A DNA stretch of 64,000 bases from an uncultured Planctomycetales bacterium (GCA_964603585.1 CAZRVK010000003.1:3693-67692), one strand, 5' to 3'. Numbered from the stretch's first letter, positions 1 to 64,000 are shown. Notes: generated from the sequence alone by a model not told the origin. Translations and numbers: made by a program.

Positions 1-1
1 A

Positions 2-15000: not shown

Positions 15001-18000
15001 AAGAAACCGGATCGGTTTTAGGGCGCAAGAAGCAATCGCGGTTTATGATGGCCAGATACTTTGGTTCTCCTGGGCGCTTCTAAGGCGTTTTCATAGGATA
15101 CATGAAGTTGATATTCATGTGGATAGCGCGGTATTAAAATATTTCCTTGAAGGGATTTTCTATCTCTATTTTGTTGCTGATCAGTCTTATCCTAAGCTGA
15201 TGCAGGAATGTTTATCGCTAAAAAAACATATTCTGGTTTCTACTTTATATGTCGCACAACACCCGGAATTATTCCATGTAAACGTTGCGCCAGCCTTTGT
15301 TTCTGAAATTAAAGCGAATACTCCCGAGGCATTGCAAGAATACCCCTCTTCCCAGATCAAATGGATTGCATTCGATCTTTATGGTGTTTTGCTTAATGAC
15401 ATAAATGAACAGCCGATCGAAGCGGTGGCCGGGCTGTTGTCTGGATTGAAGGAATTAGGGTATGGGATCGATATCCTTTCTAATGCCACAGCAAAAGAAT
15501 ATAAAGAAGCAAGTAAAATGCCCTTTATACGCTATGTCGATCGATTTTTCCCCGCATTTCATACTGAAACGAAAAAACCCGGGATCAGCGCCTTTGGTTT
15601 ATTGCTTAGGGGGCTGGCGATGCCTGATCCCCGCCAGGCTGTGCTTGTTATCGATGATTCCCAGAAGAACATCTCTGGGGCATCTGAACTCTTTGATCAT
15701 GTTATTTTTTACCAGGAGGGAGCCGATATTAAAGCAGCGTTACTTAAAAAAGGCGTATTTTTGCATGATGAAACTTCTTTTGATAACGGTGGAGAAGTAA
15801 ATCCCGGTATAGACATGCCATTTACCGAGTTATTATTTTTATTGTTGAAAGAAAACGTTTACGGAATAAGCCCGTCGACCTTTAAACTGGTTGCCTCACT
15901 TTTGGGCGTAGGCCAAGAGATCACTCCGGAAGTTATCGAAGTAATGAGAAAAGAATTGCCTCCGGAGTCATTATGGATGCTCCAAAGGGCGTATCGGGAT
16001 ATCGCTCAAAGATTCAATGCCCAGGGTATTGACGTAGCACAGTTTCGCAACAATCCATTTTTCTGGGGGAAGAATGCCGATGGGCAGGCATATCTTTTAA
16101 CCGGGCAGAATCTTTCTGCCGATGCCGTAGTAACAAAATGCGCGGGGTCAGAAGGATTCACCTCTAAGGTCAGCGAGATCGTAATTAAAGGGATACACGA
16201 TATTTTTGCCGCCGAAGGGATTAAGACCGAAGATTTTATTAAATTCGCTGATGCAGGGTCATGGCATGTAAGTATTGCTGCGCTTAAACCCAAACTCGAT
16301 ACCGATGTTACGGATGCGCAGGTCAGACAAGCAAGCGCCGATATTAAGCAGTTAACGCGTAATATGCGGTCCTTCTCTATCATTTTCGATAGGGTGATCA
16401 TTGCACCAAACGGCACGGTAATGGTGGTTGGCTATGATAACAACGGCCAGGCAACGCAGTTGCGGGACGGATTGGCAAAAAGTTACCGGGATTACGAATA
16501 TAGCCGGATGAATATCTTCCATATTACTATTGGACGATTCATTGAGAATCCGCCTCAACAGGTTGTAGAAACTTTAAAGAAGTGGGTTATGGCCTTTGCC
16601 TGGGAACGATTGGGGACGATTAAGGTGGATAGTATTGTTTTGGCAAGCCAGAAGGGCCCGATTATTCAGCCGACGTTTAAGGAGTGGGAAAGATTCGAAT
16701 TAGCAGGAAAACCGGTAATAAGTTTGAGCCTGGTTAACGAATATTCTCGGCCATCGGATATAAGTTTTATTAAACGCCAATTATTTATGTCCGGCGTCTA
16801 TGGTGCGCTTTTCTTTGCACCGATCGGGTTACTCGCGACACTTTATATCGCTCCATTTTCGCTTTTATGGATAGCGGTAGTCCCTGTTATTTCCGGATTA
16901 CTTGGCGGGGTTTTTCTTGCCGGGCTACATTTAATCGAATTACATCTATCAAACCCAACTCCCAGGGCTATTCTTGATGCCGAATGGCTTGCGGATATGG
17001 CGGTAAGGCATGAAAAGAAGGTTCTTCAAGGGCAGGTTGCAGAAGAGTCATTCGATAACGGGGGAGTATTTTCGGAAGGCACAACTCGAGACGATCCAGC
17101 CAAGAAACGTTTCCTGCACGTGGCTGTTGGCGTTATCGGTTTTGTTATTGTTGTAATAATCCTGAATAAGTTAGTTGTTACCCTCGGCCTATTCTCCGGG
17201 CAGAGCCTGTTTGCGCTTTATATCAGTGCCTACGCGCGGTATCCGTTTTGGGTCGCGGGCTTAACTGCTTCATTAGAAGGCGCCGGAGCGGAATTGATCG
17301 GGTATTACCTGGCGCGCAATAATAAAGAAAAAATAAGAACGTGGATTTCTATATCCAGGTTTACCGGGATATTTTTATTCAGGTTATTGATATTAGGCCC
17401 TACAGCCGGATTAGTCGATAGGTTCATTGAATATCTCCTTCCAAAATCCGCCGCCGTAGGGACATCCGATCTTATTTTGCGCGTAACATTATCTTTGATC
17501 CACGGGGTCATTTTAAGCAGTTTAGTTAATTTCCTGGCGCCTTATTTCTGTTTTAGGCTGGAAGCAAGAGCCAGGCTAAAAGAAGGAAAGTTAGCGGAGG
17601 CAGATGATCTAAGAGAAAAGTATACTGCGGCCAAACAACTCAAAAGGACATGGCATTCAATCATCTTACGCATCGGCCCGGTTATTATACAGCATGATAT
17701 TATCCAGAACATTTTCGGTTATGAATTAGCGTATAAGATATTATCACGGTTTGGCATTGGTTTTATAAATTCAATATACCGGAGCTGGATAACTAACCTT
17801 AGCCATAAGGTAAATATAACTTCCACGAATATCCTTGCGGTTACTTCTACGGTCGCATTGATCAGTTTTATCTGGGGGTCAAAGCTAACGGCTATTTCTG
17901 CAATCGCATTAGAGTTATTAATCGTGCTTTGCGAAAAGATAAAGGCCTTCAAAATAAAGCAAGCGCTTAATGATAGGGAGAAATCTTTGGATAACGGAGG

Positions 18001-21000
18001 GGGAAAACAGGCGTGGGATTACAGTGTTATTCAACGCGCGAAAGTCGGCAAGGAAATACCCCGCGTTTGGCAGGATTATTTGCCTGTCTTAGAGCATGTA
18101 ATTAGTGAAGACGATCAATTTATTAGTGACGCATTTCAGAATATATTCGGTTTAGAAATAACCCGTGCAGATATATCAGGCATAAATATCGAGTATCTGG
18201 TCTCTGGTGGCATAAAACACGTTTTTGTTACAACCGTTACGCTTGTGACCGGTAAAAGATATGTGTTTGCACTAAAGCCCACAATTGTCGGTTTAAGCTC
18301 GGAGGACAGGGAAGATATCATGTCTACTATGTGGACTTGGAACGGATTTTGCAAGCGGGGCATCAAAGGGATCGCTAAATTCGGAGCAGACGCGACAGTT
18401 TATTTCAGAGATTTTCATCATTCCAGCATGATCATTGCCCAGGAGTTTGTCCCCGGCAAAACACTGAAAGAAATTATTGATGATACGGATCTTCCTTACT
18501 GGGCGAAGACCCAGGCGGTACGTAATGCCTACCGGGCATACATTACTTTACGCAAAGATAATCTCATTGCCATTACCGATCCGAAACCGGCCAATATCGT
18601 CGCCCTTAATGGTTCTATTTTCGACTGGATAATCATTGATATGGATAAACTGCGCACCGGCAGTGACCCCTTGCAGAGGGGGATGTCTGTCGAAGAATAT
18701 GAGCAAATACTCGATAACTATTATATCGATGAAATTCAAAAGCCTGTTTCAGCTGAAGCCTTGCCTGGAGTTAAGATCTTAGGCCATGGCAATTTCTTCC
18801 CGGCTGATAAAATAATCCATTTTCCTGCTGGCCAACCGTTTCCGGTATTCTTTACGCTTGACACTACCTCACATATCCGAACAGCAAAAGTTCAGATACA
18901 GGCCAAGGTATGGTATGAGGATAAACTTACTGGGGGATGGGAAGAAGCATTTATGACGATGGTAAATGATTATGAAAATGGCTCATATAGGTTCGGGGCG
19001 TATCTTCCAAGTGATTTTGAAGGCAAGTTTACCTTTAAGGCTTCAGTGGATGGCGGGATAAACTGGCATTGGGCAAATAACGGGCCTTTCGATAACAGAG
19101 TGCTTGTGCGTATCGGTAAAGAGGCTCCTTTAGATAACGGGGGAGAAATCAAGACCGGCAAAGAATTTTTAAATTACGAACCCGTAGAGTTAGGATCCGG
19201 GACAAGCGGGATAAGAGGCTTGGTTGTAAACATGTCTGATCTGGAATGTTATATCAATACAGTGGGCTTTTTGGATTATTTGAAAGGAATAGGCCTGCAC
19301 GAAGGAGGTTTGCAGGGAGGGGAATATATTTGTGTTGCCGGAGATTTGCGCTCCAGTACTCCCAGGATAATGCGGGCAGTAGCTCAAGCTGTAGTTGATT
19401 CTGGATACCGTGTCGATAATTGCGGATTCATTCCTACTCCGGCATTGGCGTATTATGCCATGCAAAACCGGCGTGTTAGTATTATGGTCACCGGAAGCCA
19501 TATCCCGGATAACCGTAATGGGATAAAATTTTACAAATCAAACGGCGAGGTACTAAAATCCGATGAGGCAAAGATCAAAGAGCAGGTAACGTATGCAAGG
19601 GGAAATATTTATGCCAAGTTAGGCATGCCGGACTCATTGTTCAATGAGGAGGGGATGTTGATAACTGTGCCGCAATTGCCCCCGGTAAATCCTGCGGCAA
19701 GAGAAATGTATATTTTTAGATATTTGTCCTTGTTCCCGAAAGAATGCCTTGCCGGTAAGAGGATCGTTCTTTATGAGCACTCTTCGGTAGGCAGGGATAT
19801 TTTAGCTGAAATTTTCTCTGGATTAGGCGCAGAGGTTATAAGGGAAGGGAGGAGCGACGGTGTATTTATACCCGTTGATACGGAAGCCATACGTCAACAG
19901 GATTTGGATTGTATAAAAGAGTGGGCAGGTATTTATAAACCATTCGCGCTTATTTCTGCTGATGGAGATGCTGACCGTCCATGGTTATCAGATGAAAATG
20001 GTGTATTACTGCGGGGTGATTTGTTAGGTGTTTTCGCGGCAAAATACCTCAAGGCGGATTTTGCGGCTGTTCCGATAAGCACTAATGACGCGGTTGATAT
20101 CGCGCTTTCCGGAGAGGTAGCAATAGAAAAGACGAAAATAGGTTCTCCTTATGTTATCGCTGGCATGTTGGATGCGGTTAAAAAAGGTTTTCGCAGGGTT
20201 GTAGCCTGGGAAGCAAACGGAGGTTTTCTTTCGCAGACGGACATCGAAATAAATAATAAGCTGCTCAAGGCTTTGCCTACCAGAGATGCGGTTTTGCCTG
20301 TTATCTGCGCGTTGCTTCTGGCTGTTGATTCTGGCAGGCCGTTATCTGATCTTATAAGTGAACTGCCTAAGCGGTTTACTCATTCCGGACTGGTCAAGGA
20401 TTTTCCCGTTCCCGCATCACAATCGGTCATTAAGAGGATCTCTCCCGGGATCACTGATGTTGATGAGGTGTGTTTTAATGATTCTGTTCCGGTATTATTC
20501 CGGGATGGCGCAGTCTTGAGGCTTTTAAATGACAGCGATATATCGAGAAAGCTGTTGGCTTATAAGGCAATGGTTGAAAAGAGATATTTCCGTACTCATG
20601 GCCTTCCGGCGATTGCGAATATTAATTTAGTTGATGGAGTAAGGATCCGGTTTAAAAATAATGACATCATTCACTTCCGGCCTTCGGGCAATGCGCCTGA
20701 ATTGAGATGTTATTCTAATGCGGGGTCTACCGATCGCGCTATGGGGTTAGTTGATATAGGATTAATGAATATAATCCCGCTGTTGGCCTCACCATCTCTG
20801 GATAATGGAGGGGAAATAGATAATGGCGGAGATATTGTTAATACTGATGGTGATTTGCATATAGTTTGGTATGGCGATGATTATCCGCAAGAACAGGCCG
20901 CTGTTTATGAAGGCCGAAAGTTTGTACGGGTATACAGATCAATCAGGATGAATAAAAAGGTTAATTCTCCAGATCAGCAATTACTTCTGCGCCTGTGGTG

Positions 21001-57000: not shown

Positions 57001-60000
57001 GCTTGATTTCTATAGATTCATGCTTATGGATCAACAATCCTTGGAAGGATTATGTTTATTGAGTGATTGCGCAATAGACAGGAGCGTTACGGTCGGATTC
57101 GGAAGGTTGAATCTGACATTCTTCGAGTTAGAAAAGTCAGAAAATATGCGTATCTGCGCGATTTGCCAAGGGAGCAACCTGGTTGGGCACGGGATTTTAA
57201 TATATTTGCCTCTTACGGGGACGGTAGGCTTCAGGTTCCAGATACACGCCGGCTCCACACTTATCTCCGGAAGGAATTTCAGGAATAAAGGATATGGCAC
57301 AGAGGCCTTGGTTGCTCTCATGGCAGCCTGCGTCAATTCGGGGATCTTTGGCAACAAAAGAATAAACAGATTCGAGCGTACCTTGAGTGTCGGAGATGTC
57401 GAGGACGATTTTCACTCTATCGACGGGTTTACGAGTTTCTTGGAATCCAGAGGGTTCACTCCGCAGGGAAAATTTATAATGCAAGGCGGTTATTCCGGGA
57501 GCAAGCCGTGGGTGTTATATAGCACTCAACGCAACACCGAAAACTTCGCATTTTTCTTCCCGGGCTTATTTGTGCTCGTAGTCTGCGCTTGTGTCCTTAG
57601 CTATCGTGAACTTACTGAACGTGATAGGACAGCATACGCCGCTATTAAATCAAAGTTTGCAAACGGCAATACTAACGCAAGTTCAGGGTTTGTTTTTATG
57701 GTGCCGATAATTCCTGTTTCTGGAGGGCTCTTGATCGGGGCATTATTTGTTTTGATGGCAATCAAATTATTCCGCAGCAGCAAGGTGTTCACCAGAGGCG
57801 AATATTCTTATCCGCAGCAGTTTGTACGCAAGGCCCAGTTATTAGATGGCGCCAAACAAGAGATAGAAAATATAACCTTTGCTCCTAACAGCGCCAAAAA
57901 AGTGAGCGGCGGGAATTTTGTCATTGGCGATGATTTCTTGCAGGAAGGAGGACTGCTTGTTTTTCGTATGCCCAATGGACAGAAATTCCTTTTAAGGCGG
58001 TCTCTGCATAAGGCTAATGCGCTTTCTATCGAGACGCTATCTGGTATCTCAAGAATCACACGCTGGCATAAATTACGCGGCAAATTTAAGCATGATACGG
58101 TTTTTAAGACCGGATTCCCCAGATATGAATTATTGTCCGATAGCCAGCAAATTTTTTCCCTTGAACTAAGCGGTAATTTTAAGCTGTATTCGATACCCCT
58201 GCATTTAAAAGACGGGCGGACCATTAAGGTATTCAAGTTCTATAATAATTCAATTCAAGAACAGACAATTTCTTTTTACTCTGCCCAGATAATTAAAACA
58301 ACCGAAACGGCCAAGGCAGGCGCCCAACTTAAGGCACAAGGAGCACCGGCTAAGAAGGTCCGTCCCCAGCAGGTTCCCCGGTATTTCCGCCGAGTCCTAA
58401 TCTCTATAAACCCGATAAGGTGGTTGTATGGGGTTTTCGGCCTGGCACGCACGGTACTTTTCTTCCGCAAGGCAATAGTCCTATTTATTCTGGGGGGATT
58501 AATTTCTGGCTCGGCATACGGAGTTTATCGCTATTGCATTGGTGTGCATGAAAGCGTTCTTGGGGTTGCTCATCCTGTGGACTTAAAACAAGAACATCCG
58601 CAGATCATCTGGAATGATTTTACCGATGAAAAGGTTTTGTCATCGAAAGAAATTTCTTTTGCTGTTGATCAGGCAGTAAAAGCAAGAAGCAAATTGCATG
58701 GCAATATAGTCAGCGTTGTGGTTACTGAAGATGAATCGAATAGAGATCCAAAAAACCACATACACAGGTTTAATGTCATAAAAGATCGGCTTAGTGAGGG
58801 GGTTAAGCGTGATTTAGTGGAAGTGCGCACTTTGTCGCAGGCAGATGTAGAGAGGCTCCAAGATACTATTTTTGAGGGGGACCTTAAATACCGGCAATCA
58901 ATTTTACTATTGATCGCGTATTCATTGCGGGCGATTGCCTGGGCACCCATTGCCGCAAGTTTGATCTTTCTTGTGTGGGCATGGCGGAATTTGCGCGATA
59001 AATACAGAAGCATATCAAGCATGTCGCAGGTTAGAGACTATGCCCGCGAGGGAAAGATATTCGGTGCGGTTATGGAAGATGCTTCTGCTGCGGACAATCT
59101 TATTATGTACGGTGCGCGTAATAGCCCGCTCTCCCGAGAAGTGAGTGGATGGCTGGCGGATAATTTCGATGAAGAAGAAAATAAGACTCGCGCGCAGCAA
59201 AAAAGAGAACGTGAAGCCGAGCGCCGCCAGGGACAAAGGAAGAGAAATAGAGGTAAGGGGGAACTTAACGGCGATGATAATAGCATTAATTTCTCATTAG
59301 GTTCGCCGCTGGCGATAGCAACAACCAGTATCTCCGGTTTGGTTTTAATTACTTTAATCGCATATTTATTAATCGATAGTAGTTCATGTCGCCCGCTGGT
59401 AAGGGAAGAAAAGGCTTCGAAAGACACAAGATGGGGGCTTGATATTGGAAACGGGAAAGATCCTTGTTGCTCAGAGTATGTCCTCGAAAAGGGATTAGCA
59501 GATAAGATGGTTATGGTGAATATGGATACGAAGGAGTACGATTTATCGGATTTAAACAGCCATCCGTGTATACGACACTTAATTGGCAGTCCCTTAAGAC
59601 TCCCTTTTGCCAACGAATCCATGCATCTGGCGATATTCGGTGTCTCGCTTTATTATGCCATTTTGGGAAAATACTCCGGAAAAGACGGCAATAGCGGTGT
59701 TGACTTAACTACTTTGGCAGAGGCGACAGTCGCAGATGTTTTTAAGGAACTCAACAGGGTCCTTTGTTTCGGAGGCGATGTAATTATCAGCATCGGCATA
59801 TTTAAACTGCTGGGTGAATCCAGGTTTATCAATCAAGCGATGATCAAGGAAAATCTCGGAGCATTCGGATTTGATGTAATAGACCAGGGCGTTATTACTG
59901 ACGATGAGCCTTGGACGATTAGGGCAAAAAAGTCAAGGAATGAAGGAGGCGTTTCTATCTCTTCCAGTTCTTCTGTGTTTATGCCGCTGGCAATGACGGG

Positions 60001-63000
60001 CATGAATAATAGTGTTTTCCTTGCGCTCTTGTGCTCTTGTGCGCTTGTACTTTCGGTATTGTGGGCAACCGGAAATCCGCGCAGCTTGTCTGATAAGCTC
60101 TATCAGTATTATTGGGATAAAGGTCTTGATTTGGCCAAACGCTTTGGCCAATTACAGCAGGGAGGGTTACCTAAGCCCCGGGCTTTTATGGCACTGTTGG
60201 AGGAAGCAAGAGAAGAAGATGCCGATTTTAAACTGCTTAACGAGAGTAATTTTCAAGACGTCTTAAGCGGATTAAGAAGTGACGATGTAACTGCCACCGG
60301 TGATTCTTCTGCCTGCTTTTCGGTTGCGCCGCCTGGTTTATCCGGAGCCTCGAGTAATTTTCTTGCCTCAATTGATACAACCGGGCAGCCGGTGATTATT
60401 ATAATCGGCCTATTTTTTCTCGTTCTAATAAGAAGATGGGGTTTTTGTTATATGATTTGGTTAGCCATTTCCAATGTTTTTGCAGTTCTTAAATATTTCG
60501 GAAATACGCCTTCCCGAGTAAGGCTTATAAAGAATGAAATTAGTTCAGCAAAGACTCCAGGAAAAACAGTTTTACCGTATATGACAGGGATTAAGTGCGG
60601 GAATGAGGGGATCTGTAGATATGCATTTTATCATGGGTTAGCGGCGTCTTATCACGGTGGAGTATTTGCAGATATTGGTTCTTCATCCGGATACCAGTTG
60701 GCAGTGGCATTGTTAAGCAGTGGGGCAAGAAAGGTATATAACGTAGATCTTTCTTTCCCGAGAGCCGGGCAGCATACAATTATCGCGGGCCTTGAGAATA
60801 TAAAGGATGATGCTTTCAAGATGTCTTCGTTTGCATCTGGTAGTTGCGATGCTGCAATTATGCATGATTCCTTGATCAGCATTATTGGATTACATCCGGA
60901 TATTTTGGTTGCCGAAGGATTGTTTATTGATCCGGGTTTTTCTGAATTGCAGGTTGCGGCCAATCGCTATAACGATAAATTCGCCAGGTTGATCGAAGAA
61001 ACTATGCGTATAGTAAGAGCAGGAGGCGTGCTTGTGATCTGTCTTTTAAGGGATAATTTTAAAGGTTTAGGAGAAGACTGCGCCGATACCTGGTACGATT
61101 TCTACGTTCATTGGATCACAGCGCAGCTTTTAGAGATGGGATTGGCTTACGAATATATAGAAAAAGAACATTCTTTGTATATAAAAGTAATGAAGTCCAC
61201 GGATGTTTTGTGCACATCTTCTAACGCACCCTTTGCAAATAAACACGGTTCTTTTAATTATTTCGGCTTGGCTTTTGCCGTACCATTCTTAGCTATCAGC
61301 CTTATTCTTATTATTGGGGGGATCGCATTAATCTTTATTCTTGTGATTGAGCTCCGGCAGCTGCGCAGGCTTAAAGTATTATACAAAAACTCATATGATC
61401 AGGCGTTTATTCTGGAAAAAAGATTAGAAGGGTTGCTTTGTATTATAAAAGAGCCCGATGGTGAAAGTTCACAACTCTTGCTTAATTACCGGGAATTTGA
61501 CCTATTACAGGATTGCAGGAATTTCTTGAAGCTTTGGGAAGGGGCAATAGAAGAACTGGAAACGGCTAAGTTCCGGAAAATGTTTTTGTTACGTCCTTTA
61601 CAGAGAGAAGCAATTGCTAATGCCGGTTTGCTGCTTATTGGGCAAATGCGTTATGTTTTTAGCCTGGTCAGGCCGATGAACGAAGAGTTAATGTGTTTGA
61701 TTATCGGTTCAGATTTAAGGCGTCAGATAGATGAGGATAGTTTAGGAGAATTGAGGCGCGTGCAACACGAATTTAACGTTTTATTTTTCTCCGCCAAAAG
61801 GTTAAGAAGAAGGATCAATCGTGTTTTGCATGCATGGAAGATAAAAATAGATCCGCGGGTATCTATAGGAGGATCCCGGCGCCAAGGGCATTCTATTACC
61901 GCGCAATCGATGTTTGAGGCGGCTTGTAATTATCCGATGGTAAAAGTCGAGTTCCAGCGATTAGGGGAGGCGCTTTTGGAATTGGTTCAAAGAGCCCAGA
62001 GGCAAGGGGCGATTACTTTGCGCGGCCCGCCCGCAGAGTTTGTGATCGCCAAGAACGACGGGTTGAATTGGGCTATTTTGCCGGAAGAAATTTATCGTCT
62101 GCTTAACGGGTCTGGGTTGAACGCCCAGGAAATTATTGCGCAGATCGTTTTACATGAGTCATACCCTGATGAAGCCTCGGCCCAAGAGGCACAAGCACGT
62201 CATTTCATGTTAGCCCGCCGCGCAAAAGAAGCAATCCCTCAATTTATTTCAGCATGTTCGGTCACGCGCATCGGTATTGCATTTCGCAGTATGCTGCACG
62301 GCAGAGAGGTTTTAGATGCCTCTCAAGAGATATTGGGAGCAAAGCTTATCCTTATTAATTTACGCCGCCAAAAAACACTTAAAGAGTGCATTCTATTTCA
62401 GGGGATAATAGGTGATTTAGAAGAAATGTATTCCTGGTTCCAGGTATTTGTTGGGAAGGTAAGCAGTGAATCAAAACAGGATAAATTATCCGCAGTTAAT
62501 GCTCTGAATTCCCTCAAACAGCTGGAAGGTTTTGCTGTGAGGTTAAGGGATATACGGGATTCCCTGTGTCAGCTGCAAACTGAAGTTTCTTTTGCCGGAT
62601 CTGCGATCATTGATTGTTTAGGAGATGCCTCTTGTGCGTGCCATCAGGCGGTCATACGGTTAGAGAACCGTATAAGATTTGCCCATGCTGCCCCTATGTT
62701 ATCTTTGGAACCTATAGAAGGGATTGTAAAAGCAGCTTGCCAAAATCAGCCGCAGGTTAAGATAGAAGTTATTCTGGAATCCGGTTGTCTTGTGCTCGCG
62801 GATAGATTGTCTTTGACCAGTGCTATCTTGAATATCGTGAATAATGCGGTTTACTTCAATGATCAGCGTAATGTTCAACCCATGGCGAAAGTCAGAGTAA
62901 AAGTTACCCGTCAAAATGATAGCCTGCGTCTTGAAGTTCTAGATAATGGCCCTGGGATAATGTCTCAAATCATGCCGCATATTGGTTGTTTGAATTTTTC

Positions 63001-64000
63001 TCTTAGGCGGCATGGTTCCGGTTTAGGCCTGGCTGAATTAGTTTGTGTGGCGCATGACCATGGGGGTGAAGTAGAAATAGATTCTTTTACCGCTGAAGAT
63101 GCTAATTCCGATTCAAGAGACTTTTTCATTCCTTTAAGAATGGCGTTGGAGGAAAATCCTCTTTACCACAGCCAGGTAAAGGATGTTTATCTTATTTTGA
63201 AACGCGCATCTTCTGAAATGGAAACAGAACTGGGAGAAATATTGATCAATCCGGTTAACGCTGAAAGCGTAAGAAAATTAATCAAGATGTTTGAACAGTG
63301 TCTATTACCGGCCCGGGATTTAGCGCTTAGCCAGTTACAGGGGGCTGGAGGGTTTACATTACTGGAAAATATTCTCAAACAGGTCATTGACAGTTTGTTT
63401 TCAGCTTTTGAAGAAGCTTTAGGCCAGGATTACAGTGAACCTATCCTGCAGGAGGCGATTACCAGGTATCGTAAGCTTATGGATCATTTCCATAGGCTGG
63501 TTAATTCCAAACGCATGGATATCGGTACAACTGTTACTGTAACCTTGCCGGTTAAGGTAAATTCTCCGGAGCTTCTGGCCGGGGATTTAAGTGCGTTTTG
63601 TGTTCTTCCGGGGGTATTCTCTGGGAATACGGGGTTAGTTTTAATAATACTCTTTGTATTGGGTTTAAGCGGAACGATTTATGCCGTAAGCAGCCGCAAA
63701 GTATGCAATGAAAGCGATTTAGGGATTAGGTTATCGGAGTTACCATCCGCCGCTAAAGAATACCATCAGGGATTTCAATATTTACTTGGGATCTTAGAGG
63801 AAGCAACCGGCCGTTACCAAACCGTCGATGAAGAGTTATCCCAGGCGGATATTACTTACGCAGAAGATCTTTTACGTAAAATGTTCGAGGTTACTAATTT
63901 AACCGGATCCCAGCGCAATGTTTTAGTTCTTTATCTGGCTGGTTTGGATATTGCACAGATAGCCGCAGTATTGAATAGAAGCATTTATGGTGTCCGTCAA
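2..64000 (+). CDS. Fragment of one giant multidomain ORF (at least 21,333 codons, partial at both ends)
   Basis: Phase-2 codons read manually over nt 2-4140 and 23522-64000 with no TAA/TAG/TGA; about 40 further spot checks elsewhere. All recognised domain motifs are in this phase. ORF track shows no + strand ORF above 133 aa and only short antisense ORFs. Confidence 0.85.
8..703 (+). other. N-domain repeat copy A ([25 protein letters not shown]...), ends at LQTSGVRK
   Basis: About 55-60 percent aa identity to copy B at 3991; both preceded by G-S. Confidence 0.6.
680..703 (+). repeat. Junction motif LQTSGVRK (1 of 4)
   Basis: ctg cag acc agt ggg gtg agg aaa in phase 2. Confidence 0.8.
1090..2100 (+). 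other. B12-binding-like N-domain plus radical SAM core (variant Cx4Cx2C)
   Basis: [13 protein letters not shown] at 1442-1468; [19 protein letters not shown] and GFIFFDP downstream; KYIILLGNT...MVVGEGE upstream. Confidence 0.55.
2567..2590 (+). repeat. Junction motif variant LQTSSLRK
   Basis: ttg cag acc tcc tcc tta cgt aaa. Confidence 0.6.
3991..4717 (+). other. N-domain repeat copy B ([25 protein letters not shown]...), ends at LQTSGVRK
   Basis: Homologous to 8-703 along its whole length, including the ETT(D/E)xExxYF...GIxPRILD...WTGKxHF block. Confidence 0.6.
4694..4717 (+). repeat. Junction motif LQTSGVRK (2 of 4)
   Basis: ttg cag act agt ggg gta agg aag. Confidence 0.8.
6060..6560 (+). 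other. HD-superfamily hydrolase domain, RelA/SpoT-like
   Basis: [14 protein letters not shown] ... [18 protein letters not shown] (HDTVED at 6242-6259). Confidence 0.5.
6773..6796 (+). repeat. Junction motif LQTSGVRK (3 of 4)
   Basis: ctt cag act agc gga gtg agg aag. Confidence 0.8.
6830..7990 (+). other. DUF362-like domain
   Basis: [10 protein letters not shown] ... [10 protein letters not shown] ... [21 protein letters not shown] ... [16 protein letters not shown]. Confidence 0.45.
8030..8053 (+). repeat. Junction motif LQTSGIRK (4 of 4)
   Basis: ctt cag acc agt gga att agg aag. Confidence 0.8.
8360..9400 (+). other. PHP-family metal-dependent phosphoesterase domain
   Basis: [37 protein letters not shown] ... 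VAVYAHPGW. Confidence 0.6.
9626..9649 (+). repeat. Junction motif variant LQTSSLRK
   Basis: ctt caa act tca tcg ctt cgc aaa; followed by ...[19 protein letters not shown]. Confidence 0.6.
9746..9763 (+). repeat. Junction motif SLDNGG (1 of 12)
   Basis: agt ctt gat aac ggt gga. Confidence 0.8.
9770..10480 (+). other. Archaemetzincin-like zinc metallopeptidase module
   Basis: [33 protein letters not shown] (HEIGH at 10298-10312; HExxHxxGx..HCx4CxM pattern of peptidase family M54). Confidence 0.5.
10487..10504 (+). repeat. Junction motif SLDNGG (2 of 12)
   Basis: tct ctt gac aat ggc ggc. Confidence 0.8.
10510..12230 (+). other. pgi: Glucose-6-phosphate isomerase (PGI) domain, apparently complete
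   Basis: GIGGSDLGP (10982-11008), DMESNGK (11585-11605), [24 protein letters not shown]. Confidence 0.85.
12251..12268 (+). repeat. Junction motif SIDNGG (3 of 12)
   Basis: tct atc gat aat ggc ggt; preceded by KDNGS. Confidence 0.75.
12290..12960 (+). other. HAD-superfamily hydrolase-like module 1 (motif I lacks second Asp)
   Basis: VIFDWGNVI (12317-12343), [24 protein letters not shown]. Confidence 0.55.
12980..12997 (+). repeat. Junction motif SLDNGG (4 of 12)
   Basis: tct tta gat aac ggt ggt. Confidence 0.8.
13010..14370 (+). other. ROK/glucokinase-type sugar kinase module with C-terminal helical extension
   Basis: YIGISMGG (13043-13063), [27 protein letters not shown]. Confidence 0.6.
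14375..14392 (+). repeat. Junction motif SLDNGG (5 of 12)
   Basis: tct tta gat aat gga gga. Confidence 0.8.
14400..14760 (+). other. Response-regulator receiver (REC) domain
   Basis: [12 protein letters not shown] ... [14 protein letters not shown] (phospho-acceptor Asp near 14558) ... IVLHTK. Confidence 0.7.
14792..14809 (+). repeat. Junction motif SLDNAG (6 of 12)
   Basis: tct ttg gat aat gca gga. Confidence 0.7.
14815..15770 (+). other. Helical N-part plus HAD-like hydrolase module 2 (motif I lacks second Asp)
   Basis: [11 protein letters not shown] (about 15361-15393), [17 protein letters not shown]. Confidence 0.5.
15776..15793 (+). repeat. Junction motif SFDNGG (7 of 12)
   Basis: tct ttt gat aac ggt gga. 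Confidence 0.75.
15800..17040 (+). other. Unassigned module ending in a hydrophobic helix cluster
   Basis: [53 protein letters not shown] at about 16780-16950. Confidence 0.4.
17048..17065 (+). repeat. Junction motif SFDNGG (8 of 12)
   Basis: tca ttc gat aac ggg gga. Confidence 0.75.
17070..17980 (+). other. Polytopic membrane-like module (at least 5 hydrophobic helices)
   Basis: [27 protein letters not shown]; [22 protein letters not shown]; [19 protein letters not shown]; [16 protein letters not shown]. Confidence 0.45.
17984..18001 (+). repeat. Junction motif SLDNGG (9 of 12)
   Basis: tct ttg gat aac gga ggg. Confidence 0.8.
18860..19100 (+). other. CBM48/E-set-like carbohydrate-binding beta-sandwich, copy 1
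   Basis: [65 protein letters not shown] (GxYxYKFxVDGxW pattern). Confidence 0.45.
19127..19144 (+). repeat. Junction motif PLDNGG (10 of 12)
   Basis: cct tta gat aac ggg gga. Confidence 0.75.
19150..20790 (+). other. Phosphoglucomutase/phosphomannomutase domain
   Basis: GTSGIRG (19199-19219), [12 protein letters not shown] (active-site Ser loop), SADGDADRP (metal loop), [15 protein letters not shown] (C-terminal). Confidence 0.8.
20795..20830 (+). repeat. Junction motif [12 protein letters not shown] (11 of 12, doubled)
   Basis: tct ctg gat aat gga ggg gaa ata gat aat ggc gga. Confidence 0.8.
20850..21220 (+). other. CBM48/E-set-like carbohydrate-binding beta-sandwich, copy 2
   Basis: [67 protein letters not shown]. 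Confidence 0.45.
22380..22760 (+). other. Protein-kinase-like module
   Basis: [30 protein letters not shown] (catalytic-loop-like, 22619-22651). Confidence 0.35.
22980..23120 (+). other. Histidine-kinase-like ATPase (HATPase_c-like) segment
   Basis: [21 protein letters not shown] ... [10 protein letters not shown]. Confidence 0.35.
23566..23805 (+). CDS. Candidate 79-aa ORF overlapping the giant ORF in the +1 phase
   Basis: AGGAGG 7 nt upstream of the ATG; upstream stop at 23545; product [45 protein letters not shown]... has ordinary composition, whereas the giant-ORF phase here is Ser/Cys/Leu-rich and low-complexity. Confidence 0.2.
23864..23881 (+). repeat. Junction motif SLDNGG (12 of 12)
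   Basis: tct ttg gat aat gga gga; preceded by [16 protein letters not shown], cf. [15 protein letters not shown] at 9700. Confidence 0.8.
23890..25400 (+). other. Glu/Leu/Phe/Val dehydrogenase-family domain
   Basis: [12 protein letters not shown] (Lys at 24257-24259), [15 protein letters not shown] (dinucleotide-binding), [14 protein letters not shown]. Confidence 0.75.
26500..26720 (+). other. Recurrent RGPP module, copy 1
   Basis: [67 protein letters not shown]. Confidence 0.3.
29186..29253. repeat. Perfect 26-bp inverted repeat with 16-nt loop
   Basis: aataaaggggacgtttctattttcgc (29186-29211) / gcgaaaatagaaacgtcccctttatt (29228-29253); loop agcgcttaagactatg holds an in-frame ATG at 29225-29227. 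Confidence 0.9.
29321..29392 (+). other. Lipoprotein-type signal-peptide-like segment with lipobox, internal to the ORF
   Basis: [24 protein letters not shown] (Cys codon 29384-29386). Confidence 0.4.
30668..30860 (+). other. Sigma-70 region-4 / LuxR-type helix-turn-helix module
   Basis: [62 protein letters not shown]. Confidence 0.5.
32560..33710 (+). other. Phosphate acetyl/butyryltransferase (PTA_PTB)-like module
   Basis: [16 protein letters not shown] ... [58 protein letters not shown]. Confidence 0.6.
33700..34310 (+). other. Acetate/butyrate-kinase-like module, truncated (about 200 aa)
   Basis: [19 protein letters not shown] (cf. the acetate kinase N-terminal loop) and [17 protein letters not shown] ... 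EMLVIARDT (C-terminal part); central region absent. Confidence 0.4.
37380..37660 (+). other. TPR-like repeats
   Basis: [35 protein letters not shown] ... [29 protein letters not shown]. Confidence 0.3.
39960..39985 (+). other. HExxH motif (possible second metallopeptidase-like site)
   Basis: [22 protein letters not shown]. Confidence 0.2.
40440..40900 (+). other. HD-GYP-like HD domain
   Basis: [13 protein letters not shown] (HD at 40571-40576), [28 protein letters not shown]. Confidence 0.55.
41290..41760 (+). other. Degenerate class I methyltransferase-like module
   Basis: [29 protein letters not shown]; [10 protein letters not shown] in place of NPPY. Confidence 0.3.
41990..42290 (+). 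other. CBM48/E-set-like carbohydrate-binding beta-sandwich, copy 3
   Basis: [69 protein letters not shown]. Confidence 0.35.
43480..43800 (+). other. Class I SAM-dependent methyltransferase module
   Basis: [16 protein letters not shown] ... [37 protein letters not shown]. Confidence 0.6.
44460..45250 (+). other. Methylenetetrahydrofolate reductase (MetF)-like module
   Basis: [11 protein letters not shown] (cf. VSFEFFPPRT), [10 protein letters not shown] (cf. AAYPEVHPEA), [12 protein letters not shown] (cf. AGANRAITQFFFD), [11 protein letters not shown]. Confidence 0.4.
46060..46500 (+). other. Class I SAM-dependent methyltransferase module
   Basis: [21 protein letters not shown] ... [12 protein letters not shown]. 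Confidence 0.5.
46660..47100 (+). other. Cluster of 4 hydrophobic helices
   Basis: [23 protein letters not shown]; [20 protein letters not shown]; [22 protein letters not shown]; [19 protein letters not shown]. Confidence 0.5.
47390..47530 (+). other. Cytidine/deoxycytidylate-deaminase-like zinc-binding module
   Basis: [11 protein letters not shown] (HSE 47417-47425) and [10 protein letters not shown] (PCxxC 47501-47515). Confidence 0.5.
48900..48960 (+). other. Second radical SAM-type cysteine triad (Cx3Cx2C)
   Basis: [21 protein letters not shown]. Confidence 0.3.
51950..52430 (+). other. Low-molecular-weight phosphotyrosine phosphatase / ArsC-family module
   Basis: [18 protein letters not shown] (CX5R(S) P-loop at 51977-52000) ... 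[15 protein letters not shown] ... [10 protein letters not shown]. Confidence 0.5.
54330..54560 (+). other. Pol-beta-type nucleotidyltransferase module
   Basis: [24 protein letters not shown] (GS...D.D pattern). Confidence 0.55.
55640..56800 (+). other. PLP-dependent Trp-synthase-beta-fold (PALP) module, threonine dehydratase/cysteine synthase-like
   Basis: [10 protein letters not shown] ... [19 protein letters not shown] (Lys 55784-55786), [29 protein letters not shown]. Confidence 0.65.
57060..57400 (+). other. GNAT-family N-acetyltransferase module
   Basis: [30 protein letters not shown] (motif A R/QxxGxG/A). Confidence 0.45.
59430..59900 (+). other. Weak methyltransferase-like module
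   Basis: [33 protein letters not shown] ... [13 protein letters not shown] ... [16 protein letters not shown]. Confidence 0.3.
60640..61070 (+). other. Class I SAM-dependent methyltransferase module
   Basis: [33 protein letters not shown] ... [13 protein letters not shown]. Confidence 0.5.
62000..62200 (+). other. Recurrent RGPP module, copy 2
   Basis: [56 protein letters not shown]. Confidence 0.3.
62800..63080 (+). other. Histidine-kinase-type ATPase (HATPase_c) module
   Basis: [15 protein letters not shown] (N box), [10 protein letters not shown] (G1, 62942-62959), [11 protein letters not shown] (G2). Confidence 0.6.
63840..64000 (+). other. Sigma-70 region-4 / LuxR-type helix-turn-helix module (cut by window end)
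   Basis: [47 protein letters not shown]. Confidence 0.45.

What the first reader, a model, noticed from the sequence alone, without database searches (positions are those of the whole stretch)
15800..63670. About 35 hydrophobic helices scattered between soluble enzyme domains: a topological puzzle
Strongly hydrophobic 18-25 residue segments recur along the ORF: 16780-16950, 17070-17900, 23470-23540, 30180-30240, 34380-34440, 35470-35540, 39360-39430, 41040-41110, 42650-42730, 43200-43260, 44330-44390, a 4-helix cluster at 46660-47100, 48350-48440, 49780-49860, 52520-52600, 53510-53560, 54130-54220, 54780-55200, 55490-55570, 56830-56890, 57550-57770, 58430-58500, 58900-58980, 59310-59380, 60010-60060, 60380-60440, 61260-61360 and 63600-63670. 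If all are transmembrane, cytosolic-type enzymes (PALP, methyltransferases, phosphatase) would alternate sides of the membrane, which is implausible. Either many are re-entrant or anchor segments, or the protein is cut into pieces that are targeted separately.
Basis: partly seen in the sequence, partly recalled or inferred. Interest (0 to 1): 0.55.

Follow-up and report, generated by a model that had tools for sequence, protein, structure and literature searches.

The report
Membrane-anchor junctions in a giant polyprotein-like gene
The whole 64-kb window is one stop-free gene of the Omnitrophota "giant protein" kind that strings about 43 enzyme-sized modules together, and the hydrophobic helices are not inside the enzymes but are one of three repeated junction elements between them, which points to a polyprotein cut at these junctions (not proven).

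Summary
Every listed segment is strongly hydrophobic: 29 membrane-grade segments after aa 7961, against about 2 in shuffles and none in aa 1-5590.

The window is a single open frame (nt 2-64000, 21,333 codons, no stop) that runs off both ends. Its domain set and closest homologs match the known Omnitrophota multi-enzyme giant proteins. Their many TM helices and doubtful topology are already published.

What seems unreported is a junction grammar. Complete enzyme modules (median 416 aa) are separated by short peptide motifs:
- LQTS[GS].RK, 6 copies
- S[LFI]DNGG, 12 copies
- in the TM-rich part, about 22 copies of [small]-[F/C]-x(0-3)-hydrophobic-Pro + one TM + a Lys/Arg cluster

Motif codons vary synonymously. 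Relatives use different motifs (SSSPV, SASG, GARLA, TNAAV and others) at the same module boundaries.

The junction TMs share one polarity: K/R is richer on the C-side in 20 of 22. That is incompatible with one uncut chain weaving in and out.

Best reading (about 0.5): a polyprotein cut at the junctions, with each product carrying an N-terminal N-out/C-in anchor and its enzyme facing the cytoplasm. Neither cleavage nor a protease is shown.

The parts
2..64000 (+). Single open reading frame, 21,333 codons, no stop, open at both ends: an internal piece of a gene longer than 64 kb.
   Evidence: 0 stops in frame +2 against 640-1714 in the other frames; domains tile the whole length.
677..9652 (+). 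Zone A. Modules are separated by the junction motif LQTS[GS][VIL]RK at nt 677-706, 2564-2593, 4691-4720, 6770-6799, 8027-8056 and 9623-9652. Cargo: B12/radical SAM, CofD-like, DUF362, PHP.
   Evidence: (0 hits in shuffles).
9746..23881 (+). Zone B. Modules are separated by S[LFI]DN[GA]G at nt 9746-9763, 10487-10504, 12251-12268, 12980-12997, 14375-14392, 14792-14809, 15776-15793, 17048-17065, 17984-18001, 19127-19144, 20795-20830 (doubled) and 23864-23881.
   Evidence: DNGG occurs 12 times against 0.23 expected; codons vary synonymously..
10121..10459 (+). Peptidase_M54 (archaemetzincin) module with the [10 protein letters not shown]...HCADLRCAM...CKAC motif intact. It is the only protease domain detected in the window and a speculative candidate for the processing enzyme.
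   Evidence: (E = 6e-13).
10676..12214 (+). Complete phosphoglucose isomerase module, bracketed by SLDNGG on one side and SIDNGG on the other.
   Evidence: E = 1.6e-201; 65-70% identical to stand-alone PGIs; the same module is bracketed by SSSPV in the relative L001.
12308..16642 (+). One-enzyme-per-module run: HAD (12308-12889), ROK kinase (13037-14083), response-regulator receiver (14411-14656), 2'-5' RNA-ligase-like (16307-16642).
16781..17950 (+). First hydrophobic cluster, about 7-8 helices: nt 16781-16936, 17099-17227, 17360-17551 and 17816-17950. All but the first helices (nt 16781-16936, just upstream) lie in a conserved membrane module (aa 5689-5994) bounded by SFDNGG and SLDNGG.
   Evidence: 54-57% identical to P0100; the sequence also resembles the N-terminal region of P0026 as printed (by eye, not aligned). 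AF2 model unusable.
19199..20377 (+). Phosphoglucomutase/phosphomannomutase domains I-III.
23447..23527 (+). First motif+TM junction ([27 protein letters not shown], followed by KGGWVSKK).
24008..25387 (+). Glutamate/Leu/Phe/Val dehydrogenase (NAD(P)-dependent).
   Evidence: E = 3.6e-66.
26810..28957 (+). Alpha-glucan phosphorylase-fold module. Stand-alone homologs end at aa 9640-9646.
   Evidence: AF2 pLDDT 80-95 up to aa 9648. Foldseek E = 4.5e-19 to glycogen phosphorylases.
28988..29065 (+). Hydrophobic junction helix directly after the phosphorylase C-terminus. It is predicted as an isolated, low-confidence helix outside the fold and lacks the F..P motif.
   Evidence: model helix 665-690 = aa 9663-9688, pLDDT about 44-53.
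30152..30229 (+). Motif+TM junction [26 protein letters not shown], followed by a basic cluster.
34337..34426 (+). Motif+TM junction [27 protein letters not shown].
35471..35533 (+). Motif+TM junction [20 protein letters not shown], followed by KKK.
39356..39430 (+). Motif+TM junction [25 protein letters not shown], followed by RILKRR.
41039..41107 (+). Motif+TM junction [23 protein letters not shown], followed by [10 protein letters not shown].
43160..43282 (+). Motif+TM junction [14 protein letters not shown] plus a long hydrophobic stretch of 41 aa.
44315..44371 (+). Motif+TM junction [19 protein letters not shown].
46655..47104 (+). Four-helix cluster: junction TM (46655-46723), two further helices (46772-46939), and a fourth helix that again carries the motif (FALFYPLT, 47018-47104).
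48338..48433 (+). Motif+TM junction [22 protein letters not shown].
49769..49846 (+). Motif+TM junction [26 protein letters not shown].
52517..52609 (+). Motif+TM junction [27 protein letters not shown].
53495..53551 (+). Motif+TM junction [19 protein letters not shown], followed by [10 protein letters not shown].
54119..54217 (+). Motif+TM junction [33 protein letters not shown].
54767..55222 (+). Junction TM (LFAPYLD..., 54767-54847) plus two further helices (55037-55222): three spans in all.
55490..55564 (+). Motif+TM junction [25 protein letters not shown], followed by [11 protein letters not shown]. It abuts the conserved N-terminus ('W.N') of the PALP module.
   Evidence: homology starts at about aa 18529..
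55688..56713 (+). PLP-dependent enzyme (PALP) module.
   Evidence: (E = 1.9e-20).
56813..56896 (+). Junction [30 protein letters not shown] (no Pro in the motif).
57545..57763 (+). Two motif+TM junctions whose hydrophobic stretches start 44 aa apart (24 aa between them): FAFFFPG... at 57545-57604 and [12 protein letters not shown]... at 57677-57763.
59291..59374 (+). Motif+TM junction [28 protein letters not shown].
59978..60073 (+). Motif+TM junction [29 protein letters not shown].
61259..61348 (+). Strongest TM (KD 3.17), with the motif LAFAVPF and followed by ELRQLRRLK. It is the sole span between Methyltransf_11 (nt 60671-60874) and HATPase_c (nt 62801-63085).
63596..63694 (+). Last motif+TM junction in the window, [27 protein letters not shown] sigma-70 region-4-like HTH follows at nt 63899-63994.
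29333..60469 (+). Hydrophobic segments without the motif and of uncertain status: nt 29333-29398, 37007-37078, 42629-42712, 58433-58528, 58898-58981 and 60368-60469.
   Evidence: They do not fit the model cleanly.

Best explanation
The window is an internal piece of an Omnitrophota-type giant multi-enzyme gene built as beads on a string. About 43 complete, ordinary-sized protein modules are joined in frame by short, gene-specific junction elements.

In the first third the junction is a soluble peptide motif (LQTS[GS].RK, then S[LFI]DNGG). In the TM-rich two-thirds the junction is a tripartite unit:
- a motif, [small]-[F/C]-x(0-3)-hydrophobic-Pro
- one 19-33-residue transmembrane helix
- a Lys/Arg cluster

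So the hydrophobic helices are inter-module junctions, not parts of the enzymes (shown).

The most likely mechanism is inferred. The chain is a polyprotein cut by one or more sequence-specific proteases at or near each junction motif. In the TM-rich zone the cut falls just N-terminal of the helix. [quoted passage not shown] That gives an equimolar, membrane-tethered enzyme set, lets dimeric or hexameric enzymes assemble, and removes the topology paradox.
For: Shown:
- One 21,333-codon stop-free frame.
- A domain set and Omnitrophota-affiliated homologs that match the published multi-enzyme giants (literature).
- 42 junctions and 43 modules, median 416 aa, with no junction inside a Pfam envelope and mostly one enzyme per module where a Pfam domain is detected.
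- DNGG occurs 12 times against 0.23 expected. PSSM hits are 14 (zone B) and 6 (zone A), against 0.6 and 0 in shuffles.
- Motif codons vary at synonymous sites, so selection acts on the peptide.
- The PGI module (76% identical) is bracketed by SLDNGG here and by SSSP[VI] in the independent giant ORF L001.
- Other relatives each have their own motif that tightly flanks Pfam domains and never interrupts them: SASG 12 times, GARLA 20 and 13 times, KPGSSDME 7 times, RSELR 6 times, [ST]NAAV 7 times.
- At the orthologous N-boundary of the PALP module, relatives carry SASG or GARLS where this gene carries motif+TM+basic.
- Stand-alone phosphorylase homologs end about 20 aa before the helix at aa 9663-9688. 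AF2 places that helix outside a confident fold.
- The F..P motif is found at 21 of 36 hydrophobic segments here against 36 of 478 background TMs (odds ratio 17).
- K/R is richer on the C-side at 20 TMs against 2 (p = 1e-4).
- Most junction TMs have no partner helix within 100 aa.

Inference from established knowledge:
- The positive-inside rule.
- SAM-, ATP-, NAD(P)- and CoA-dependent enzymes need the cytoplasm.
- PGI, GDH and phosphorylase are obligate oligomers.
Against: - No cleavage product, protease-substrate link or topology has been observed.
- The only protease domain in the window is an M54 archaemetzincin. NCBIfam, Pfam and PDB searches of the unannotated modules found no protease or sortase.
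- The junction peptides match no known sorting-signal model.
- The F..P motif was defined post hoc, is degenerate and is itself partly hydrophobic. Pro and aromatic residues are common at helix N-caps.
- Several hydrophobic segments lack the motif (aa 9663, 12336, 14210, 20123). Some of them would put a methyltransferase on the wrong side under the model.
- Three long 'modules' (1274-1702 aa) hold two or more proteins with no recognised junction between them.
- No close ortholog of the TM-rich zone was found, so conservation of individual TMs could not be tested.
- Published DeepTMHMM surveys treat such proteins as uncut membrane proteins.
Confidence: 0.5

Rival explanations
1. An uncut giant integral membrane protein. 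The chain threads in and out at every helix, so about half of the enzyme modules are periplasmic or extracellular and act on prey-derived substrates. The junction motifs are only conserved linkers or docking sites.
For: - This is the default reading of TMHMM/DeepTMHMM surveys of Omnitrophota giants, and of the proposal that glycolytic domains pre-process sugars outside the cell.
- The helices are membrane-grade.
- No processing protease has been identified.
Against: - The uniform C-side K/R polarity (20 against 2) contradicts alternation under the positive-inside rule.
- One TM separates a SAM-dependent methyltransferase from an ATP-binding domain.
- The chain carries NAD(P)-, CoA-, ATP- and SAM-dependent enzymes, receiver domains and sigma-70 region-4-like HTH domains.
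- Exact 6-8-residue motifs with free synonymous sites are more than a passive linker needs.
- Exporting soluble domains of several hundred residues after each N-in helix, dozens of times in one chain, has no precedent that I know of (from my own knowledge; notes only that Sec/SRP/YidC insertion at multi-kAA length is untested).
Confidence: 0.2
2. An uncut chain that lies wholly on one side of the membrane. The hydrophobic segments are monotopic or interfacial anchors, self-association elements of a cell 'coat', or segments that insert into a prey membrane. They do not span the producer's membrane.
For: - This avoids the topology paradox without needing a protease.
- A surface 'coat' role has been proposed for the Velamenicoccus giant protein.
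- The Pro-containing N-edge could kink a helix.
Against: - The segments are 19-33 uniformly apolar residues with additive dG at or below 0. They are not amphipathic and are too short for helical hairpins.
- The consistent flanking basic cluster is typical of true spans.
- This reading does not explain why soluble zones of the same gene, and relatives, use short peptide motifs at equivalent boundaries.
Confidence: 0.12
3. The gene is not expressed as one protein. Internal translation starts or mRNA processing yield separate proteins, and the junction motifs are translated shadows of nucleotide signals.
For: Module sizes and contents look like an operon whose stop codons have been removed.
Against: - Motif codons vary freely at synonymous positions while the amino acids are fixed.
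- No start codon or fixed Shine-Dalgarno sequence follows the motifs.
- There is no stop codon anywhere to end such products.
- No Rfam family, including ribozymes and introns, is found.
Confidence: 0.05
4. Most of the segments are buried helices of globular domains that are mis-scored as membrane spans.
For: - Three weaker hydrophobic stretches (KD 1.7-1.95) do lie inside the DUF362, GDH and PALP folds.
- Many modules have no annotation, so their folds are unknown.
Against: - None of the listed segments lies in a Pfam envelope.
- Homologs end or begin right next to the TMs at aa 9663 and 18497.
- Five more TMs lie outside the only two conserved blocks of aa 17480-18679.
- AF2 places the aa 9663-9688 helix outside the fold.
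- The 5,590 soluble residues of the same protein contain no comparable segment.
Confidence: 0.03

Closest known systems
Omnitrophota giant proteins: the 'Archaeovorin'-type and 'multi-enzyme metabolic cluster' class (Kizina 2022, not read here, cited via Seymour 2023; Seymour 2023, PMC10066038; West-Roberts 2023, bioRxiv 10.1101/2023.11.21.568195; Nielsen & Lui 2026, bioRxiv 10.64898/2026.06.07.730766)
   Same: - A stop-free ORF of tens of kilobases.
- Best homologs come from Omnitrophota MAGs.
- The same Pfam repertoire: PGM/PMM, PGI, ROK, radical SAM, receiver, HAD, HD, Methyltransf_11, HATPase_c.
- TM density here is roughly one membrane-grade segment per 460 aa in the TM-rich part, within the spread reported for these giants (densest published case about one per 370 aa).
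- The topology is already acknowledged as doubtful, and cleavage has already been speculated.
   Different: - Neither of the two giant-protein preprints checked by text search (West-Roberts 2023; Nielsen & Lui 2026) describes junction motifs, and West-Roberts states that information on cleavage points is lacking.
- Here, explicit gene-specific junction motifs and a TM-containing junction type with uniform polarity are defined.
- No SecA_DEAD or C39 domain lies inside this window, but both ORF ends are outside it.
Viral polyproteins (for example flavivirus, picornavirus and nidovirus pp1ab)
   Same: - One ORF encodes many complete proteins.
- Short conserved motifs sit at each boundary, and each lineage has its own site specificity.
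- TM segments between soluble domains set the membrane topology of the products.
- The products are made in equimolar amounts.
   Different: - This is a cellular (bacterial) gene.
- It has at least 43 modules, mostly metabolic or regulatory enzymes.
- The protease is not identified and cleavage is not shown.
- It uses three different junction types within one ORF.
Tripartite C-terminal sorting signals (LPXTG/sortase, PEP-CTERM/exosortase, GlyGly-CTERM/rhombosortase and others)
   Same: The layout is the same: a short signature motif, then one TM helix, then a basic cluster, in that order.
   Different: - The unit is internal and repeated about 22 times rather than at the C-terminus.
- It matches no NCBIfam sorting-signal model.
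- No sortase-like enzyme was found.
- The upstream cargo is cytoplasmic-type enzymes, not exported proteins.
Double-glycine leader processing by C39 peptidases
   Same: - Zone B junctions end in Gly-Gly.
- Several relatives' motifs contain small-Gly pairs.
- C39 domains are reported near the N-termini of Omnitrophota giants.
   Different: - No C39 domain lies in the window.
- The upstream hydrophobic register of double-glycine leaders is not evident.
- Other motifs (SSSPV, RSELR, TNAAV) have no Gly-Gly.
Reverse signal-anchor (type III, N-out/C-in) membrane proteins
   Same: A single N-proximal TM is followed by a basic cluster and a cytoplasmic catalytic domain. This is what each zone-C product would be after cleavage.
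   Different: Here this is only a predicted outcome. The insertion route (YidC or Sec) and a free N-terminus are assumed.

Membership tests
Omnitrophota giant multi-enzyme ('Archaeovorin'-type / metabolic-cluster) proteins | ORF of at least 10,000-30,000 aa | tested here: met
   At least 21,333 aa, open at both window ends.
Omnitrophota giant multi-enzyme ('Archaeovorin'-type / metabolic-cluster) proteins | Encoded in an Omnitrophota genome | tested here: inconclusive
   The closest homologs of three modules are Candidatus Omnitrophota MAG proteins. The nearest giant-ORF relative, L001, is labelled 'Planctomycetales bacterium' in NCBI. The source contig was not found.
Omnitrophota giant multi-enzyme ('Archaeovorin'-type / metabolic-cluster) proteins | Many distinct enzyme Pfams tiling the chain (PGM/PMM, ROK, rSAM, receiver, HAD, HD, PF08241, PF02518) | tested here: met
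   compared with the catalogue quoted.
Omnitrophota giant multi-enzyme ('Archaeovorin'-type / metabolic-cluster) proteins | Numerous scattered TM helices | tested here: met
   34 peaks with KD >= 2.0; 33 segments with additive Hessa dG <= 0.5.
Omnitrophota giant multi-enzyme ('Archaeovorin'-type / metabolic-cluster) proteins | Divergent SecA_DEAD domain and/or an N-terminal C39 or S8 peptidase | tested here: inconclusive
   None was found in the window, but both ends of the ORF lie outside it.
Tripartite sorting signals (LPXTG, PEP-CTERM, GlyGly-CTERM and others) | Signature motif + TM + basic cluster | tested here: met
   About 22 units with this layout.
Tripartite sorting signals (LPXTG, PEP-CTERM, GlyGly-CTERM and others) | Located at the extreme C-terminus of the substrate | tested here: not met
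   All units are internal and the frame continues through them.
Tripartite sorting signals (LPXTG, PEP-CTERM, GlyGly-CTERM and others) | Match to a curated sorting-domain model | tested here: not met
   Ten junction peptides gave no sorting-signal hit in NCBIfam at E <= 10.
Tripartite sorting signals (LPXTG, PEP-CTERM, GlyGly-CTERM and others) | Cognate sortase, exosortase or rhombosortase | tested here: not met
   None was detected in any module. The rest of the genome is not available.
Proteolytically processed polyprotein | Several complete proteins in one ORF | tested here: met
   PGI and phosphorylase modules match full-length stand-alone homologs end to end. Module map.
Proteolytically processed polyprotein | Conserved short site at each boundary | tested here: met
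   Also true of relatives, each with its own site.
Proteolytically processed polyprotein | Cognate protease | tested here: inconclusive
   One intact M54 metalloprotease module is present. There is no evidence linking it to the sites.
Proteolytically processed polyprotein | Demonstrated cleavage products | not testable with these tools
   This needs proteomics or N-terminomics.
C39 / double-glycine processing | Gly-Gly (or G-A/G-S) at positions -2/-1 of the site | tested here: inconclusive
   Zone B has ...DNGG. Zone A has ...TSG or ...TSS, and zone C has none.
C39 / double-glycine processing | C39 peptidase domain | tested here: not met
   Not found in the window. It may lie in the unseen N-terminus.

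The most novel reading that the evidence does not exclude
Omnitrophota giant genes are true bacterial polyproteins. Dozens of complete housekeeping and regulatory enzymes are translated as one chain and released at short cleavage sites that differ from gene to gene (SLDNGG, LQTSG.RK, SSSPV, SASG, GARLA, TNAAV and others).

This gene also has a previously undescribed junction type in which the cleavage motif is fused to a reverse signal-anchor. [quoted passage not shown] That would be operon-like co-expression achieved by proteolysis at a scale unknown in cellular life.
Probability: 0.45. Interest if true: 0.88.

Novelty: new member of a known kind. Interest (0 to 1): 0.62.

Why it matters
Whether giant Omnitrophota proteins (up to 147,000 aa) act as single chains or are cut up is an open question, and the published work says it lacks any information on cleavage points.

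The junction grammar found here supplies explicit, gene-specific candidate cut sites. It also gives a concrete topology prediction: every enzyme cytoplasmic, tethered by an N-out/C-in anchor. This makes the question directly testable with existing or new metaproteomes, by looking for neo-N-termini at the motifs.

The motifs also give a rational way to split these proteins for structure prediction and annotation. They would explain how cytoplasmic, oligomeric, cofactor-dependent enzymes can be encoded between membrane helices.

If cleavage is confirmed, this would be a cellular polyprotein strategy comparable to that of RNA viruses, with lineage-specific site specificities. If it is refuted, the conserved motifs still need an explanation.

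Tried and rejected
- Word-index homolog search of aa 15400-16700 found nothing. It was probably swamped by TM words.
- Exhaustive HMMER of aa 17480-18679 found homologs only for two sub-domains and none for the junctions. Conservation of individual TMs could therefore not be tested.
- The first metagenome scan, with the last 893 aa, found no relative, and the source contig was not recovered. The ORF ends and neighbouring genes remain unknown.
- Junction peptides against NCBIfam sorting-signal models gave no hit.
- NCBIfam on all unannotated modules and PDB sequence searches of four dark stretches found no protease, sortase or insertase.
- The AF2 model of the conserved TM-cluster module (aa 5685-5994, submitted from the DNGG of the preceding junction) reached only pLDDT 52.8, so no fold search was run.
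- BLAST self-comparison shows almost no internal repeats, so this is not a repeat-scaffold protein.
- Nucleotide-signal ideas for SLDNGG (Shine-Dalgarno plus start, stop in another frame, recombination core) were rejected because the codons vary synonymously.
- A 2A-like ribosome-skipping reading is considered unlikely, because the motifs differ completely between genes that would share one ribosome type (inference).
- Prepilin-peptidase and lipobox readings of the F..P motif were rejected. The charge polarity is opposite to pilins and signal peptides, there is no Glu at +5, and the Cys lies N-terminal of the helix. Cys enrichment at the motif is only 1.8-fold.
- The F..P PSSM finds only chance-level extra hits without a TM (6 against about 4 expected), so no TM-less version of the zone-C junction can be claimed.
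- Rfam found no RNA family in the window.
- The Kizina 2022 proteomics paper is not held in the library.


Full report
**What is in the window.** Frame +2 is open from nt 2 to nt 64000: 21,333 codons with no stop. The other five frames carry 640-1714 stops. The ORF tool lists nothing only because the frame runs off both ends. The finding therefore concerns an internal piece of a gene longer than 64 kb. GC is 41-48% and the coding strand has a steady G>C skew. No Rfam family is present.

**Checking the observation.**
- A Kyte-Doolittle scan gives 34 distinct 19-residue peaks of at least 2.0.
- On an additive Hessa scale there are 0 insertion-grade segments in aa 1-5590, 4 in aa 5591-7960 and 29 in aa 7961-21333. 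Shuffles of the last stretch give 1.9 on average.

**What the protein is.** Pfam tiles the chain with ordinary enzymes:
- B12/radical SAM, CofD-like, DUF362, PHP, Peptidase_M54
- phosphoglucose isomerase (E = 1.6e-201), HAD, ROK, receiver domain, 2'-5' ligase-like
- PGM/PMM, glutamate dehydrogenase, a phosphorylase
- sigma-70 region-4 HTH, PTA, AckA-like, HD
- methyltransferases, cytidine deaminase, PALP, HATPase_c

NCBIfam adds a HemK-like methyltransferase.

The PGI is 65-70% identical to stand-alone PGIs of many bacteria. The best hit (79%) lies in another stop-free giant frame, L001. The phosphorylase-like block has stand-alone homologs of 650-1100 aa, mostly from Candidatus Omnitrophota MAGs. 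Named long relatives are Omnitrophota proteins.

This domain set is the one catalogued for the 'multi-enzyme metabolic cluster' giants of Omnitrophota. The literature already reports:
- numerous TM helices, about 2% of residues and as dense as one per 370 aa in the most extreme published protein
- glycolytic domains with 'highly unlikely' predicted localisations

**The new element: a junction grammar.** K-mer statistics show DNGG 12 times (0.23 expected) and LQTSG 4 times. PSSM scans define two motifs, against 0-0.6 hits in shuffles:
- LQTS[GS][VIL]RK at aa 226, 855, 1564, 2257, 2676 and 3208
- S[LFI]DN[GA]G at 12 junctions between aa 3249 and 7960

These motifs fall exactly between Pfam domains: M54 | PGI | HAD | ROK | receiver | ... 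| PGM | ... | GDH.

The codons of the motif vary freely at synonymous positions. Selection therefore acts on the peptide, not on a nucleotide signal.

From about aa 7800 onward the junction changes character. About 22 copies of [small]-[F/C]-x(0-3)-hydrophobic-Pro run straight into one hydrophobic helix, followed by Lys/Arg. Examples are [23 protein letters not shown] and SVFMPLA. A regex for this edge motif is met at 21 of 36 hydrophobic segments here, against 36 of 478 TM-like segments in about 1,200 background ORFs (odds ratio 17). The motif was defined post hoc.

With all three junction types the window divides into 43 modules with a median of 416 aa. No junction lies inside a Pfam envelope.

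**Comparative support.**
- In L001 the orthologous PGI module (76% identity) is bracketed by a different motif, SSSP[VI], which occurs 7 times.
- Other long relatives each have their own repeated motif: SASG (12 times), GARLA (20, 13 and 6 times), KPGSSDME (7), RSELR (6), [ST]NAAV (7). These tightly flank Pfam domains and never interrupt them.
- At the conserved N-terminus of the PALP module ('W.N'), P0026 has SASG, P0052 has GARLS, and this gene has motif+TM+basic. The TM unit is therefore positionally equivalent to the soluble junction motifs.
- The F..P-TM type is not seen at isolated TMs of the relatives (3 of 42). It is specific to this gene.
- Neither of the two giant-protein preprints, searched by text, mentions junction or linker motifs, and a library-wide search for 'polyprotein' with Omnitrophota found nothing relevant.

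**Are the helices parts of enzymes?** No, wherever this could be tested.
- Stand-alone phosphorylase homologs end at aa 9640-9646, about 20 residues before the helix at aa 9663-9688.
- An AF2 model built on 14 sequences is confident up to aa 9648 and has a glycogen-phosphorylase fold (Foldseek E = 4.5e-19). It leaves the helix as an isolated, low-confidence element.
- In aa 17480-18679, an exhaustive HMMER search finds homologs only for two blocks that exclude all TMs in that stretch.

**Topology.**
- The single junction TMs have a uniform polarity. K/R is richer on the C-side in 20 against 2 with 10-aa flanks (p = 1e-4), and in 18 against 4 with 15-aa flanks.
- Most have no second hydrophobic segment within 100 aa.
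- One uncut chain cannot give every single span the same orientation. Strict alternation would violate the positive-inside rule at about half the spans. It would also put SAM-, ATP-, NAD(P)- or CoA-dependent enzymes outside. For example, Methyltransf_11 and HATPase_c are separated by the single strongest TM.

**Most likely mechanism (inferred).** The chain is a polyprotein processed at the junction motifs. In the TM-rich zone the cut falls just before the helix. Each product is then a short tail, an N-out/C-in anchor, a basic cluster and a cytoplasmic enzyme.

This fits four things: the charge bias, the position of the conserved motif on the N-side, the three-span clusters that end inside, and the needs of oligomeric enzymes.

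The protease is unknown. The window encodes one intact archaemetzincin (M54) module. C39 and S8 domains are reported at the N-termini of such giants but are not in this window.

**Weak points.**
- Nothing has been shown experimentally.
- The F..P motif is degenerate.
- Several hydrophobic segments lack the motif (aa 9663, 12336, 14210, 20123).
- Three long modules must hide junctions that were not recognised.
- No ortholog of the TM-rich zone was found.

**Verdict.** The object is a new member of a known class, and the puzzle itself has been published. The junction grammar and the TM-type junction appear to be unreported and turn the 'is it cleaved?' question into a directly testable one.

Noticed in passing
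window nt 2-64000: The entire window is one stop-free frame. The first 5,590 residues are entirely free of TM-grade segments.
   Followed up: yes
window nt 677-9652 and 9746-23881: Two soluble junction motifs in successive zones: LQTS[GS].RK 6 times, then S[LFI]DNGG 12 times. They are 41 aa apart at the zone switch (aa 3208 and 3249). This suggests the gene was assembled from parts with different junction 'dialects'.
   Followed up: yes
window aa 1-234 vs 1329-1572 (nt 2-703 vs 3986-4717): An internal duplication at 58.6% identity. Each copy ends at an LQTSG junction, so a module was duplicated together with its junction. Weaker pairs: aa 6257-6366 with 6952-7062, and aa 12125-12240 with 20629-20739.
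   Followed up: partly
L001 (SBBM01000005.1) 1-13555: An independent stop-free giant frame (4,518 aa in the locus) labelled 'Planctomycetales bacterium'. It shares only the PGI and phosphorylase modules with the window, 614 aa apart there against 4,850 aa here. Cargo modules are therefore shuffled between giant genes.
   Followed up: partly
P0024, P0026, P0027, P0032, P0048 and others (relatives): Many 3-7-kaa Omnitrophota multi-enzyme proteins share two features. One is an N-terminal signal-anchor-like head ('...FLAQDI.WAYPD...KLAP.SFF'). The other is a conserved C-terminal domain of about 150 aa ending '...Y(L/V)(V/I/A)(M/N/A)A'. These may be a common 'head' and 'tail' for this protein class.
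   Followed up: no
window nt 17066-17983 (aa 5689-5994): A conserved multi-helix membrane module with a near-invariant stretch [29 protein letters not shown]. It is shared with P0100 (aligned) and, judged by eye from the sequence printed, with the N-terminal region of P0026. It has no Pfam, NCBIfam or PDB match, and the AF2 model was of low confidence.
   Followed up: partly
window nt 30698-30844 and 63899-63994: Sigma-70 region-4 / LuxR-like HTH domains sit about 90-170 aa downstream of two junction TMs. P0026 and P0032 carry repeated sigma-70-like modules as well. Why DNA-binding modules are in a membrane-studded giant protein is unexplained.
   Followed up: no
window nt 57545-57763: Two motif+TM junctions of the same polarity whose hydrophobic stretches start only 44 aa apart (24 aa lie between them). 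This is either a tiny product or a hairpin, and it is an awkward case for any model.
   Followed up: no
window nt 20795-20830: A doubled junction, [12 protein letters not shown].
   Followed up: no
window nt 10121-10459: The archaemetzincin (Peptidase_M54) module has an intact HExxHxxG...CX4CXM...CXXC signature. The substrates of this family are essentially unknown.
   Followed up: partly
window, whole length: GC skew is persistently positive (0.07-0.24) on the coding strand over all 64 kb.
   Followed up: no
window nt 25388-26809 and other long modules (aa 7961-9662, 10077-11445, 11845-13118): Modules of 1,274-1,702 aa contain two or more proteins with no recognised junction between them. A single TM-less F..P-like hit at aa 8734 is not above chance. 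Further junction types may remain undetected.
   Followed up: partly
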